32,000 bases of DNA from an uncultured Bacilli bacterium (GTDB lineage: Bacteria; Bacillota_I; Bacilli_A; RF39; UBA660): contig CAKPKR010000001.1 of assembly GCA_934167465.1 (NCBI GenBank), forward strand, positions 182,336 to 214,335, given 5' to 3'. How positions within the stretch are numbered: the stretch's first letter is position 1; each line of letters starts with the position of its first letter. Below are positions 11,902 to 12,546 of the stretch, one piece after another. A model generated the notes under the pieces. It was not told the DNA's origin. It did not search any database and was given only the letters and a program-made list of their open reading frames with translations. The position numbers and the translations under genes are program-made.

Positions 11902-12546
11902 TTATTCTATGAAATCTTTTAGTTTTCTTGTATTTCTAGGATGTCTCATTTTGACTAATGCTCTTTGTTCTTGTTTTGCAATTGTGACTTTAGAACATCC
12001 AAATATTTCTGCTACCTCATCTTGCGTTTTTTTATGCACTTCATCAAGACCATATCGTAATAAAATAATTTTCTGTTCTCTAGAAGTCAAACATTGCAAA
12101 GCTTCACGAACTATATCTATTTTCATTTCAGATATTACATCTTCTATTAATTGTTCGGCATCGGTACCAATTAGATCTTCTATTTTCATTTCATCCCCAT
12201 CTTTATTCTGACCTATTGGCTGATCAAAACTTAATATATGACTATGCTTATTATACTTTCTTAATTCCATCTTCATTTGATTTTCAATTGCAATAGAAAT
12301 ATATGAACTAAATCCCTCTATCGCTTTTTCGTTATAATTAAACTTATTAATTGCATTTATTAAACCTTCATTGCCTGCTGATTGTAATTCTTCAAAAGTT
12401 AAACCTTTACCTAGATATTTTTTTGCAAAGAATCCAACTAATCCACCATTGCAGATTGTTAAAACTTCTAATGCATCTTCATCTCCAAGTTCTCGCCATG
12501 CTCTTAAACAATTTTTTGTTTCTTCCAATGATAATCTTCTAGCCAT
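11902..12546 (-). CDS. Sigma-70 family sigma factor resembling sporulation sigma factors (SigE/SigK-like)
   Basis: 214 aa from ATG 12546 (GGTGGTGA SD). The region 2 block is GLINAINKFN...YISIAIENQMKMELRK. The segment SFDQPIGQNKDGDEMKIEDLIGTD and the region 4 block LRYGLDEVHKKTQDEVAEIFGCSKVTIAKQEQRALVKMR parallel B. subtilis SigE/SigK as I recall them. Confidence 0.8.
   Translation of the reverse strand: MARRLSLEETKNCLRAWRELGDEDALEVLTICNGGLVGFFAKKYLGKGLTFEELQSAGNEGLINAINKFNYNEKAIEGFSSYISIAIENQMKMELRKYNKHSHILSFDQPIGQNKDGDEMKIEDLIGTDAEQLIEDVISEMKIDIVREALQCLTSREQKIILLRYGLDEVHKKTQDEVAEIFGCSKVTIAKQEQRALVKMRHPRNTRKLKDFIE

What the first reader, a model, noticed from the sequence alone, without database searches (positions are those of the whole stretch)
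11902..12546. A sporulation-type (SigE/SigK-like) sigma factor is encoded inside the element that interrupts a sporulation gene
- **Resemblance.** The 214-aa sigma factor has regions 2 and 4. Its linker and region 4 (SFDQPIGQNKDGDEMKIEDLIGTD ... LRYGLDEVHKKTQDEVAEIFGCSKVTIAKQEQRALVKMR) parallel B. subtilis SigE ([24 protein letters not shown] ... [33 protein letters not shown]) and SigK ([21 protein letters not shown] ... GRFGLDLKKEKTQREIAKELG). These reference sequences are from memory.
- **No pro-sequence.** It has no obvious pro-sequence.
- **Precedent.** Phage-borne homologues of sporulation sigma factors have been reported to alter sporulation.
- **Possible roles here.** The gene sits in a mobile element whose excision would restore a sporulation gene. 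It could time excision, hijack mother-cell transcription, or be a leftover late-gene regulator of a decayed phage.
Basis: partly seen in the sequence, partly recalled or inferred. Interest (0 to 1): 0.7.

Follow-up and report, generated by a model that had tools for sequence, protein, structure and literature searches.

The report
Mobile-element sigma factor splitting spore gene cwlD
A real, intact sigma factor that resembles the sporulation factors SigE/SigK, but is not one of them, is carried with a DNA-binding partner gene on a 6.2-kb serine-recombinase element that splits the spore-cortex gene cwlD in an uncultured low-GC gut bacterium; it looks like passenger cargo rather than a phage relic or the switch that controls excision.

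Summary
**Observation: confirmed.**
- Window 11902..12546 (-) encodes a 214-aa sigma-70-family protein with regions 2 and 4.
- Its best profile matches are SigK and SigE, about 130 bits. It has no pro-sequence.
- It lies inside a 6,249-bp element (7902..14150) that splits cwlD at a CATGG core. Element-free strains of the same species carry an intact cwlD whose product is identical to the rejoined protein.

**Interpretation: partly supported.**
- It is not a SigE or SigK orthologue. Scores are far below the curated cut-offs, and it never groups with the SigE+SigK clade (0/100 bootstraps).
- It belongs to a separate ~215-aa clade.
- Members at 52% identity or more have a multi-HTH (GcrA/Myb-like) gene directly upstream.
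- Both genes are under purifying selection (dN/dS 0.07-0.20).

**The carrier is not the prophage.**
- The prophage is a separate insertion at rpsI that only some strains carry.
- The carrier is a relaxase-less relative of integrative mobilizable elements whose recombinases cut Amidase_3 genes at the His-Gly codons.
- Two sister elements lack the sigma module. In other species the module sits at unrelated sites.

**Conclusion.** The sigma is most likely cargo, probably read from a sigma-A-type promoter. Its regulon is unknown, and sporulation-coupled excision is untested.

The parts
11902..12546 (-). Sigma-70-family sigma factor, 214 aa, with regions 2 and 4, a short SigE/K-type linker, no pro-sequence and a SigA-like C-terminal tail
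   Evidence: dN/dS is 0.07-0.20 against eight orthologues.
12539..13609 (-). Multi-HTH partner gene, 353-356 aa. It has five GcrA/Myb-like repeats plus a central HTH, and its stop codon overlaps the sigma start codon.
   Evidence: Pfam gives weak GcrA, Sigma70_r4_2 and Myb matches. PHROG 323 'transcriptional regulator' matches at E=2e-44. The repeats are listed. A homologue lies directly upstream of sigma in most of the 12 related species loci and in two sigma relatives at 52-56% identity. dN/dS is 0.10-0.20.
13610..13853 (-). 3' remnant of a second, upstream multi-HTH paralogue. It marks the left limit of the DNA shared with other species.
   Evidence: Across species, blastn homology to the module spans about 13853 to about 11900 only. 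The stretch corresponds to the end of the 693-aa paralogue in L013.
14033..14150 (-). Conserved left end of the element. It holds the attL core CATGG (14150..14146), a hairpin followed by a U-run (about 14081..14057), and an extended -10 TGGTATAAT (14052..14044).
   Evidence: The stretch is 86% identical to the left end of L035 and 77% identical to that of L037. The hairpin folds are and the motif coordinates.
14136..14270 (-). cwlD 5' fragment: signal peptide up to ...LDPGHGG
7365..7910 (-). cwlD 3' fragment (Amidase_3 domain). The attR core CATGG lies at 7901..7897.
   Evidence: Pfam Amidase_3 at E=2.8e-44. CwlD TIGR02883 at 199 bits. The junction is shown.
8823..10415 (-). Large serine recombinase, 530 aa, with Resolvase, Recombinase, Zn_ribbon_recom and DUF4368 domains
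   Evidence: PHROG 95 integrase at E=5e-110. Homologues at 75-95% identity are abundant in 'Bacilli bacterium' MAGs.
10480..10623 (-). 47-aa ORF just upstream of the recombinase. It is conserved in sister elements and is a candidate recombination directionality factor.
   Evidence: The gene is called in L019-L024 and in L037-L039. The sequence is also conserved in L035 (alignment). It has no family match.
10686..11171 (-). HTH_36 protein, 161 aa. It belongs to the element backbone and resembles replication initiators or DnaD.
   Evidence: It is conserved in L035 and L037.
11368..11745 (-). Junction scar: an internally deleted IS256-family transposase remnant fused to the 3' part of the element's 86-88-aa gene, giving the 51-aa ORF at 11368..11523
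   Evidence: Translation. Pfam Transposase_mut at E=4e-16. Alignment.
7929..8762 (-). Bro-N-domain protein at the right end of the element. It matches the PADLOC candidate defence protein PDC-S13.
   Evidence: PDC-S13 at 346 bits. Also present in L035.

Best explanation
**What it is.**
- The ORF is a functional alternative sigma factor from a separate, lineage-restricted clade of the sigma-70 family.
- It has the compact SigE/SigK-type layout: sigma-2, a short 3.2 linker and sigma-4.
- It is made without a pro-sequence, so it should be active as soon as it is translated.
- It forms a two-gene module with a translationally coupled multi-HTH DNA-binding protein. That partner probably acts with the sigma at its target promoters (inferred).

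**Where it sits.**
- In this genome the module is cargo of a 6,249-bp element. The element is a relaxase-less, rearranged derivative of a family of integrative mobilizable elements.
- The large serine recombinase of that family integrates at a CATGG core in the His-Gly-Gly codons of Amidase_3 genes. Here the target is cwlD.

**How it probably works (inferred).**
- The module is probably transcribed from the sigma-A-type extended -10 promoter at the element's left end. A hairpin with a U-run ahead of that promoter would shield it from read-through out of cwlD.
- Integration and excision are done by the recombinase, probably helped by a small directionality factor, and do not need the sigma factor.
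- Precise excision would rebuild cwlD.

**What is shown and what is not.** The anatomy, the att sites, the empty-site allele, the family placement and the selection are shown. The promoter, the partner's role, the regulon and any link between excision and sporulation are inferred or unknown.
For: **Sigma identity**
- Pfam regions 2 and 4.
- Full-length alignment to SigK and SigE profiles at about 130 bits, starting after their pro-sequence positions.
- The core-binding motif AGNEGLINAINKF and an IENQM region 2.4 are intact.
- dN/dS is 0.07-0.20 for sigma and 0.10-0.20 for the partner.

**Separate clade**
- 37 clusters at 50% identity reach E<1e-30, most about 215 aa.
- All four next-tier hits that were tested are SigK-class, at 34-37% identity to the query.
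- In the bootstrapped tree SigE+SigK are supported at 97% and the family never joins them; family monophyly is 67%.

**Two-gene module**
- The stop and start codons overlap.
- A partner homologue lies upstream in most of the 12 species loci and in two relatives at 52-56% identity.
- No downstream gene is shared between species.

**The element**
- attL, attR and attB share the core CATGG.
- P0121 is 100% identical to the rejoined CwlD. It is found on four contigs of the same species that lack the element (97-99.8% DNA identity for L025).

**Derivation from an integrative mobilizable element**
- Recombinase relatives at 94% and 81% identity lie in the layout Mob_Pre - cargo - HTH_3 - HTH_36 - (47 aa) - recombinase - (Bro-N), abutting Amidase_3 genes.
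- The left end and the right 3.6 kb are homologous to those elements, and all the elements cut at CATGG.
- Those two sister elements carry no sigma gene.

**Secondary acquisition**
- Homology to other species' modules is limited to 11900..13853.
- The module is bounded by an IS256 remnant.

**Variable location of the module**
- In one species it lies between mntP and thiF.
- In another it follows Mob_Pre.

**Promoter and terminator**
- TGGTATAAT at 14052..14044, with a hairpin and U-run before it.
- TGnTATAAT motifs precede the first multi-HTH gene in several species.
Against: - No expression or binding data exist, and the regulon is unknown.
- The promoter call rests on a consensus match in 25%-GC DNA. 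The generic promoter scan found fewer sites than its shuffles.
- The hairpin in this copy is weak (z = -1.2), so read-through from the cwlD promoter cannot be excluded.
- The tree is a distance tree built on top-scoring hits with unresolved deep branches. A sister relation to SigE/SigK cannot be excluded.
- The interrupted allele is seen on more contigs than the intact one. That pattern would fit a regulated, beneficial arrangement rather than an accident.
- In two species the module rides an element of this kind, so it may be more than a chance passenger.
Confidence: 0.6

Rival explanations
1. The element is a skin-like, developmentally excised element. Its SigE/K-like sigma acts in the mother cell, either to switch on the recombinase or directionality factor so that excision is timed, or to redirect SigE/SigK-dependent transcription.
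For: - SigK and SigE are the best-matching characterised families, and region 2.4 is SigE/K-like (IENQM against IENEI).
- There is no pro-sequence, so the protein would be active without SpoIIGA or SpoIVFB processing.
- The element splits cwlD, and precise excision restores it.
- The interrupted allele is common in assemblies: the exact protein is indexed in 35 collection blocks, against four contigs with intact cwlD. A permanently inactive germination gene should be selected against in a spore former.
- All element genes run in the same direction as cwlD.
- There is precedent for non-phage intervening elements (gin, PMC5595907) and for mobile sigma homologues that alter sporulation (PMC9429907).
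Against: - Sister elements with the same HTH_36 and recombinase module lack the sigma gene and target non-CwlD amidases. Recombination control in this family therefore does not depend on it.
- The module occurs away from any recombinase in most species.
- It was joined to the element next to an IS256 scar.
- A sigma-A-type promoter and a terminator-like hairpin separate it from cwlD.
- It lies outside the SigE+SigK clade.
- The region 4.2 recognition helix differs from SigE/SigK and varies within the family.
Confidence: 0.12
2. The sigma plus multi-HTH module is a conflict or maintenance cassette, for example anti-phage defence, counter-defence or control of the element. It sits in the cargo slot of mobilizable elements and evolves by allele shuffling.
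For: - In sister element L035 the same slot holds an OLD-family nuclease plus a UvrD-like helicase. I read this as Gabija-like from memory; it was not tested.
- The right end carries a PDC-S13 candidate defence gene, and AbiD and AbiEi lie next door in the chromosome.
- Multi-HTH genes vary in copy number from one to three.
- Sigma alleles within one species differ by 11% and are mosaic, while the flanks are 98% identical.
- Contigs often break at the module.
Against: - PADLOC gives only a generic sigma match to MzaA (54 bits) and nothing specific for the partner.
- dN/dS is low rather than diversifying.
- No effector gene is linked to the module.
Confidence: 0.15
3. It is a relic late-gene sigma factor of a decayed prophage.
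For: - A prophage lies 5 kb away in the window.
- PHROG families match sigma (phrog_351) and the partner (phrog_323).
- Weak hits of 40% identity or less occur in unannotated 'Bacteriophage sp.' faecal contigs.
Against: - The prophage is a separate insertion at the 3' end of rpsI. It is absent from strains that keep the sigma element.
- Two IMG/VR scans found no relative.
- The element backbone is of the integrative mobilizable type, with no phage structural or lysis genes.
- Both genes of the module are under purifying selection across more than ten species.
Confidence: 0.03
4. It is the host's own SigK or SigE, diverged and lacking a pro-sequence as in Clostridioides difficile SigK.
For: - The best profile is SigK.
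- It has no pro-sequence.
- C. difficile SigK also lacks a pro-sequence and is controlled by skin excision (PMC5025042).
Against: - Scores are about half the curated cut-offs.
- It is never inside the SigE+SigK clade.
- Its location varies between species and sometimes lies on a mobile element.
- It is not in the 10 kb either side of cwlD in strains without the element.
- A related species has spoIIGA at a separate locus, which implies a conventional pro-SigE.
Confidence: 0.02

Closest known systems
Bacillus subtilis SigK and SigE (mother-cell sporulation sigma factors; NCBIfam TIGR02846/NF004471 and TIGR02835/NF006158)
   Same: - The mature proteins have the same compact layout and length.
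- They align without gaps from the mature N-terminus through regions 2.1-2.4, the short 3.2 linker (SFDQPIGQNKDGDE against [14 protein letters not shown]) and region 4.
- They are the best-scoring characterised profiles.
   Different: - Identity is only 33-34% and scores lie far below the cut-offs.
- There is no pro-sequence.
- Sigma-4 and the C-terminal RHPxxxxKLKDF tail are SigA-like.
- The family falls outside the SigE+SigK clade.
- It is coupled to a multi-HTH gene rather than to spoIIGA.
- Its genomic location varies and is partly on mobile elements.
Sporulation-gene intervening elements: skin (sigK; SpoIVCA), SPbeta (spsM; SprA/SprB) and gin (gerE; GirC/GirX)
   Same: - A large serine recombinase element is inserted inside the coding sequence of a sporulation gene.
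- It has a short core, and precise removal restores the ORF.
- Like gin, it is small and not a phage (PMC5595907, PMC4191935, PMC5025042).
   Different: - The target is cwlD. The text searches run found no report of cwlD as an interrupted gene.
- The element comes from a mobilizable-element family that targets the GHGG motif of any Amidase_3 gene, so the hit on a sporulation gene may be incidental.
- Sporulation-specific excision is untested.
- It carries a sigma factor gene. The three papers consulted (PMC4191935, PMC5595907, PMC5025042) describe no sigma gene carried as cargo of skin, SPbeta or gin.
Phage-encoded sporulation-like sigma factors (Schwartz et al. 2022, PMC9429907)
   Same: A homologue of a sporulation sigma factor is carried on a mobile element in a spore-forming lineage.
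   Different: - The phage genes are preferentially SigF/SigG-like and lie in phage genomes.
- This one is SigE/K-like by profile only, is not phage-borne, and comes with a partner gene.
Firmicute integrative mobilizable elements with a serine recombinase and a MOBV (Mob_Pre) relaxase (reviewed in PMC5704250 and PMC5357655)
   Same: - Site-specific serine recombinase, very short direct repeats, and insertion inside a gene.
- Variable cargo between the left end and the integration module.
- The review's element tables list a sigma-70 factor gene for a 'tet(O) fragment' element of Streptococcus pyogenes.
   Different: - This copy has no relaxase and no HTH_3 regulators, so it is a decayed or non-autonomous derivative.
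- The review mentions neither amidase targets nor sporulation (zero occurrences of each word).
GcrA of Caulobacter (a DNA-binding partner of sigma-70), as an analogue for the multi-HTH protein only
   Same: The repeats match the GcrA DNA-binding domain weakly (Pfam PF07750 at 27.4 bits; PDB 5yiu at E=0.9). The gene is coupled to a sigma factor gene.
   Different: - It has five tandem repeats plus a central HTH and no GcrA C-terminal sigma-binding domain.
- The similarity is marginal, and any interaction with the sigma factor is only inferred.

Membership tests
Sigma-70 family (Pfam Sigma70_r2 + Sigma70_r4; NCBIfam TIGR02937 superfamily) | Region 2 and region 4 domains score above the curated thresholds | tested here: met
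   r2 scores 30.8 bits (cut-off 24) and r4 scores 46.1 bits (cut-off 24.1). TIGR02937 scores 91 bits (cut-off 42.9).
SigK (TIGR02846 equivalog / NF004471 subfamily) | Whole-protein score at or above the curated cut-off | tested here: not met
   Scores are 125.5 bits against 298.65 and 133.4 bits against 252. Next-tier hits P0290, P0294, P0296 and P0300 pass NF004471.
SigE (TIGR02835 / NF006158 equivalogs) | Whole-protein score at or above the curated cut-off | tested here: not met
   Scores are 128 bits against 348.6 and 132 bits against 339.
SigE / SigK | N-terminal pro-sequence removed by SpoIIGA or SpoIVFB | tested here: not met
   Profile alignments start at model positions 29-41 and at protein residue 9-10. 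The protein begins where mature SigE and SigK begin. Note that C. difficile SigK also lacks a pro-sequence (PMC5025042).
SigE / SigK | Phylogenetic placement inside the SigE or SigK clade | tested here: not met
   NJ tree with 100 bootstraps: SigE+SigK 97%; family+SigK 0; family+SigE 0; family+(SigE+SigK) 4; family+SigA group 24. This is a distance method on selected hits and the deep nodes are unresolved.
SigE | Conserved spoIIGA-sigE-sigG gene neighbourhood | tested here: not met
   Here the neighbours are the multi-HTH gene and element genes. In a related species spoIIGA lies about 10 kb from the module and is not adjacent to it.
SigF / SigG (the class of most phage-borne sporulation sigma homologues) | Best match to the SigF/SigG/SigB models | tested here: not met
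   TIGR02885 scores 62.5 bits, TIGR02980 scores 70.6 bits and NF004052 scores 61.2 bits. All are partial matches to the C-terminal region.
ECF (group 4) or TcdR-like (group 5) sigma factors | Best matches to ECF or TcdR/UviA/BotR-type models | tested here: not met
Only the generic superfamily model TIGR02937 matches. The 25 best NCBIfam families are all of the SigK/E, RpoD, SigB/F/G, RpoS or RpoH type.
Sporulation-gene intervening element (skin / SPbeta / gin type) | Inserted within the coding sequence of a sporulation gene | tested here: met
   - The split ORF has a 5' fragment at 14136..14270 and a 3' fragment at 7365..7910.
- The rejoined protein scores 214.1 bits on CwlD TIGR02883. The alignment is full length, but the score is just under the 221.55 cut-off.
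- The gene order ecfA-ecfA-ecfT-truA-rplM-rpsI-methyltransferase-...-cwlD matches the B. subtilis order as I recall it.
Sporulation-gene intervening element | Encodes its own site-specific recombinase | tested here: met
   A 530-aa large serine recombinase with all four domains and the YCRLSDED active-site motif.
Sporulation-gene intervening element | Precise excision reconstitutes an intact gene | tested here: inconclusive
   At sequence level the feature is met: attB equals the left arm of attL plus CATGG plus the right arm of attR, and the empty-site allele encodes a protein 100% identical to the rejoined one. Actual excision was not observed. Those contigs also lack the IS3 copy, so they come from element-free strains and are not excision products.
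Sporulation-gene intervening element | Excision is developmentally regulated (mother-cell specific) | not testable with these tools
   This needs junction PCR or read-level analysis through sporulation. Two JGI metagenome scans for the attP junction and for the left end found nothing, because that collection does not hold the element at all.
Integrative mobilizable element (serine recombinase + MOBV relaxase) | Own integration and excision module, flanked by short direct repeats | tested here: met
Integrative mobilizable element | Relaxase gene and/or oriT for mobilisation | tested here: not met
   This copy has no Mob_Pre gene. Sister elements L035 and L037 have one. No oriT was identified. 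It is best called a derivative of such an element.

The most novel reading that the evidence does not exclude
The sigma plus multi-HTH pair may be a previously undescribed mobile transcription module of SigE/SigK descent, made active without proteolytic processing. When it is carried on an element that splits cwlD, it would act during sporulation. It could recognise SigE/K-like -10 elements in the mother cell, or couple the expression or excision of the element to spore development. That would make this a skin-like element that carries its own developmental sigma factor.
Probability: 0.12. Interest if true: 0.8.

Novelty: new variant of a known kind. Interest (0 to 1): 0.5.

Why it matters
**New facts if the anatomy holds**
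- cwlD joins the sporulation genes known to be split by an excisable recombinase element. The text searches run found no earlier report of cwlD as an interrupted gene.
- The element comes from a mobilizable-element family whose recombinases recognise the conserved His-Gly-Gly codons of amidase genes. That gives a simple route by which skin-like arrangements could arise by accident.
- There is a compact clade of SigE/K-like sigma factors without a pro-sequence. Its closer members (52% identity or more) have a GcrA/Myb-like multi-HTH gene directly upstream. The pair moves between chromosomal sites and mobile elements in an uncultured low-GC gut lineage. No curated family model captures it.

**What could be tested**
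- How sporulation sigma factors diversify.
- Whether mobile elements use such factors to tap into host developmental transcription.

**Practical point**
- At least two of the listed homologues are named 'sporulation-specific sigma factor' by JGI. The tests here do not support that name.

Tried and rejected
- **IMG/VR scans.** One scan with the protein and one with a seven-sequence alignment found no relatives. The broader 28-sequence alignment was too diverse for that tool.
- **GenBank phages.** tblastn gave only hits of 40% identity or less, mostly unannotated faecal contigs and RpoD-like genes.
- **JGI metagenome scans.** Scans for the excised-circle junction (attP) and for the element's left arm gave 0 hits each. 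The element itself is absent from that collection, so this says nothing about excision.
- **Rfam.** No match at E up to 0.1 over 7300..17700.
- **Generic promoter and terminator scan.** It found fewer promoter-like sites than its shuffles did, so it is uninformative in 25%-GC DNA.
- **PADLOC.** Only a generic MzaA match for sigma, and nothing specific for the partner.
- **PDB sequence search with the partner.** Only marginal SANT and GcrA hits, E of 0.3 or more.
- **Conserved downstream target genes across species.** None found.
- **Idea: the prophage is the interrupting element.** Rejected. Strains L020-L022 keep the sigma element but lack the prophage, and the junction lies at the 3' end of rpsI.
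- **Idea: the TGnTATAAT promoter belongs to the sigma module.** Revised. In this copy the promoter lies in the conserved left end of the element.
- **Not run.** Structure prediction, because it would not discriminate between the explanations.
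Full report
**1. The observation**

- The window has about 25% G+C and nearly all its genes lie on the minus strand.
- The ORF at 11902..12546 (-) encodes 214 aa; an upstream ATG at 12561 would give 219 aa.
- The shorter start overlaps the stop codon of the preceding gene (ATGGCTAG). 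It is the start used for most homologues, which are called at 215 aa.
- Pfam finds Sigma70_r2 and Sigma70_r4 above threshold and no region 3.
- The best NCBIfam matches are SigK (NF004471, 133 bits; TIGR02846, 125.5) and SigE (NF006158, 132; TIGR02835, 128). These are single end-to-end alignments that start at model positions 29-41, after the pro-sequence.
- The SigF, SigG and SigB-type models reach only 61-71 bits over the C-terminal part.
- The sigma factor, its SigE/K-like look and the absence of a pro-sequence are therefore real.

**2. The interrupted gene and the true element**

- A 44-aa ORF at 14136..14270 (-) reads MRKYKICVLFLFIISLYCFEFVNANNNFPLLGKIVYLDPGHGGL*. This is a signal peptide followed by the start of an Amidase_3 domain.
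- The ORF at 7365..7910 (-) supplies the rest of the domain. It scores 199 bits on CwlD TIGR02883, aligned to model positions 7-189.
- I joined the two fragments and searched with the result. P0121 came back: 218 aa, 100% identical over 100% of the length.
- P0121 is encoded on four metagenome contigs with the gene order ecfA-ecfA-ecfT-truA-rplM-rpsI-methyltransferase-XRE-cwlD-Abi_2-... These contigs have no insertion. For L025, DNA identity to the window is 97-99.8%.
- Comparing attB with the two junctions gives a common core of CATGG:

| Site | Sequence |
|---|---|
| attB | GACCCTGGT-CATGG-TGGCTTGGATCC |
| attL | GACCCTGGT-CATGG-AGGACTATGAG |
| attR | GTGCCTGCA-CATGG-TGGCTTGGATCC |

- The insertion is 6,249 bp (7902..14150).
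- The rejoined protein scores 214.1 bits on the CwlD equivalog. The alignment is full length, but the score is just under the 221.55 cut-off.
- From memory, the gene order rpsI-methyltransferase-...-cwlD is also that of B. subtilis (rpsI-ybaJ-ybaK-cwlD).
- A related species has spoIIGA, and a more distant relative of the sigma gene sits next to gerQ. The lineage therefore looks like a spore former.

**3. The prophage is a different insertion**

- Strains with an identical sigma protein (L020-L022) have rpsI directly upstream of the methyltransferase and no phage genes. L019 is identical to the window over the compared 6 kb.
- Homology with the phage-free strains resumes at window 17475, inside the 3' end of rpsI.
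- The prophage (17476 to beyond 32000) and an IS3-family copy (14816..16249) are therefore independent insertions that only some strains carry.

**4. What the carrier element is**

- The 530-aa large serine recombinase has many homologues at 75-95% identity in 'Bacilli bacterium' MAGs.
- Two of them (94% and 81% identity) lie in elements with this layout: left end - cargo and Mob_Pre relaxase - HTH_3 regulators - 86-88-aa gene - HTH_36 - (47-aa ORF) - recombinase - (DUF4160) - (Bro-N). Each element abuts an Amidase_3 gene that also has LysM repeats.
- Those amidases are not CwlD.
- The window element shares the left-end ~110-130 bp with them (86% with L035, 77% with L037) and about 3.6 kb at the right (11494..7876; 76-88% identity).
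- In all four insertions the crossover lies at CATGG, in the His-Gly codons of the D-x-G-H-G-G motif.
- This is the known class of integrative mobilizable elements with a serine recombinase, which insert inside genes (PMC5704250).
- The window copy has lost the relaxase and the HTH_3 regulators.
- Hitting a sporulation gene may therefore follow from the recombinase's sequence preference rather than from any link to sporulation.

**5. The sigma gene is part of a two-gene module that was added to the element**

- Across other species, DNA homology to the window covers only about 11900..13853. That stretch holds:
  - a 3' remnant of an upstream multi-HTH paralogue;
  - the 356-aa multi-HTH gene;
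  - the sigma gene.
- On the right the module ends at an internally deleted IS256-family transposase remnant. The remnant is fused to the element's 86-88-aa gene.
- Neither sister element examined has a sigma module.
- The module sits at different places in different species:
  - In a species with sigma alleles at 81% and 88% identity it lies between mntP and thiF, beside lexA and polA, with no mobility genes.
  - In a species with a 93% homologue it follows a Mob_Pre gene.
  - In other species the flanks are unrelated and share no downstream gene.
- A multi-HTH homologue lies directly upstream of sigma in most of these loci. It is also there in relatives at 56% and 52% identity, but not in one at 46%.
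- dN/dS is 0.07-0.20 for sigma and 0.10-0.20 for the partner, so both genes are maintained by selection.
- Within one species the sigma alleles differ by 11% and are mosaic, while the flanks are 98% identical.

**6. Family placement**

- An exhaustive HMMER search of 1.84 billion representative proteins found 37 clusters at E<1e-30. Most are about 215 aa and start at the same point.
- All four next-tier hits that were tested (34-37% identity to the query, 230-234 aa) pass the SigK subfamily cut-off.
All pass their equivalog cut-offs, so they serve as references.
- In a trimmed alignment of 209 columns:
  - the N-terminal half and the linker are closest to SigE/SigK (for the linker, BLOSUM sums of 74-75 against 35 for SigA);
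  - the C-terminal 61 aligned columns (query residues 146-214) are closest to SigA (131 against 95-96).
- The RHPRNTRKLKDF tail is SigA-like, and the best PDB matches are all SigA region 4.
- NJ bootstrapping on 56 taxa with 100 replicates:

| Grouping | Bootstrap support |
|---|---|
| SigE + SigK | 97 |
| SigF + SigG | 100 |
| Query family monophyletic | 67 |
| Family + SigK | 0 |
| Family + SigE | 0 |
| Family + (SigE + SigK) | 4 |
| Family + SigA-like group | 24 |

- The protein works like a compact group-3 sigma and looks most like SigE/SigK, but it is not a member of either family. Its deeper position is unresolved.
- The region 4.2 recognition helix (SKVTIAKQEQ) differs from SigE/SigK and varies across the family, so promoter specificity cannot be predicted.

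**7. Expression (inferred)**

- The conserved left end of the element holds a hairpin followed by a U-run. It is strong in L035 and L037 (z = -2.4 and -4.1) and weak in the window copy (z = -1.2).
- The hairpin is followed by an extended -10, TGGTATAAT, at 14052..14044.
- In other species the first multi-HTH gene is preceded by TGnTATAAT-type motifs.
- The recombinase has its own conserved TATAAT.
- This points to sigma-A-dependent transcription that is insulated from cwlD, not to a sporulation promoter. All of it rests on consensus matches in AT-rich DNA.

**8. Comparison with what is known**

- Intervening elements with serine recombinases are established for sigK, spsM and gerE; vfbin and vrin are cited as further examples, and a prophage-like element is described in yabG (PMC4191935, PMC5025042, PMC5595907, PMC10747680).
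- None of the texts searched names cwlD as a target.
- Phage-borne sporulation-like sigma factors are preferentially SigF/SigG homologues (PMC9429907).
- Serine-recombinase mobilizable elements are known to disrupt dispensable genes, and a sigma-70 factor gene is listed for one element in the review's tables (PMC5704250).

**9. Verdict**

- The best reading is a cargo sigma/partner module on a decayed mobilizable element (confidence about 0.6).
- Whether excision is tied to sporulation, and what the sigma transcribes, remain open.

Noticed in passing
window 17476..32000 (the right end runs off the window): A tailed prophage carrying tail genes, a tape-measure gene, holin and a CHAP/CW_7 lysin is integrated at the 3' end of rpsI. 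It is absent from several strains of the same species. A reverse transcriptase gene (19303..20442, -) sits between the tail-fibre genes and the holin.
   Followed up: partly
window 14816..16249: An IS3-family insertion sequence (orfA at 15699..16247, orfB at 14854..15456) lies between the methyltransferase and the XRE gene. It is absent from the element-free strains (L025).
   Followed up: partly
window ~11478..11745 (-): An internally deleted IS256-family (Transposase_mut) remnant is fused in frame to the 3' part of the element's 86-88-aa gene, which creates the 51-aa ORF at 11368..11523. It marks the junction between the sigma module and the element backbone.
   Followed up: yes
window 7929..8762 (-); also 6302..7237 and 2341..2928: The Bro-N protein at the right end of the element matches the PADLOC candidate defence protein PDC-S13 (346 bits, full length). 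The chromosome next to it encodes AbiD and an AbiEi antitoxin-like protein. No AbiEii partner gene is evident next to AbiEi among the listed ORFs of 70 aa or more.
   Followed up: partly
window 11228..11268 (-); L035 and L037 equivalents: A conserved inverted repeat, AAGGTAC-N25-GTACCTT, lies upstream of the HTH_36 gene in all three elements. The same AAGGTAC word occurs in the conserved left end (about 14075). It could be a recombinase or regulator binding site, an oriT or a terminator.
   Followed up: no
L035:450-640, L037:970-1140, L038:970-1140 and window 14146..14150 / 7897..7901: This recombinase family splits four different Amidase_3 genes at exactly the same place: CATGG, in the His-Gly codons of the zinc-binding DxGHGG motif. 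It is an example of a recombinase that targets a conserved catalytic-motif coding sequence across paralogues.
   Followed up: partly
L013 versus L032 (10001..10648): Two strains are 98% identical over 17 kb of flanking DNA, yet their sigma alleles differ by 11%. The allele in L032 is mosaic: its N-terminal half resembles the window allele and its C-terminal half resembles the L013 allele. This indicates recombination between alleles.
   Followed up: partly
L029-L031, L041-L042: Metagenome contigs repeatedly end within a few hundred bases of the sigma/multi-HTH module. This suggests repeated or strain-variable sequence there. Multi-HTH paralogues occur in one to three tandem copies.
   Followed up: no
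L035:603-3349: A sister element carries an OLD-family ATPase/nuclease plus a UvrD-like helicase in the cargo slot that holds the sigma module in the window. From memory this resembles the Gabija system; it was not tested against a defence library.
   Followed up: no
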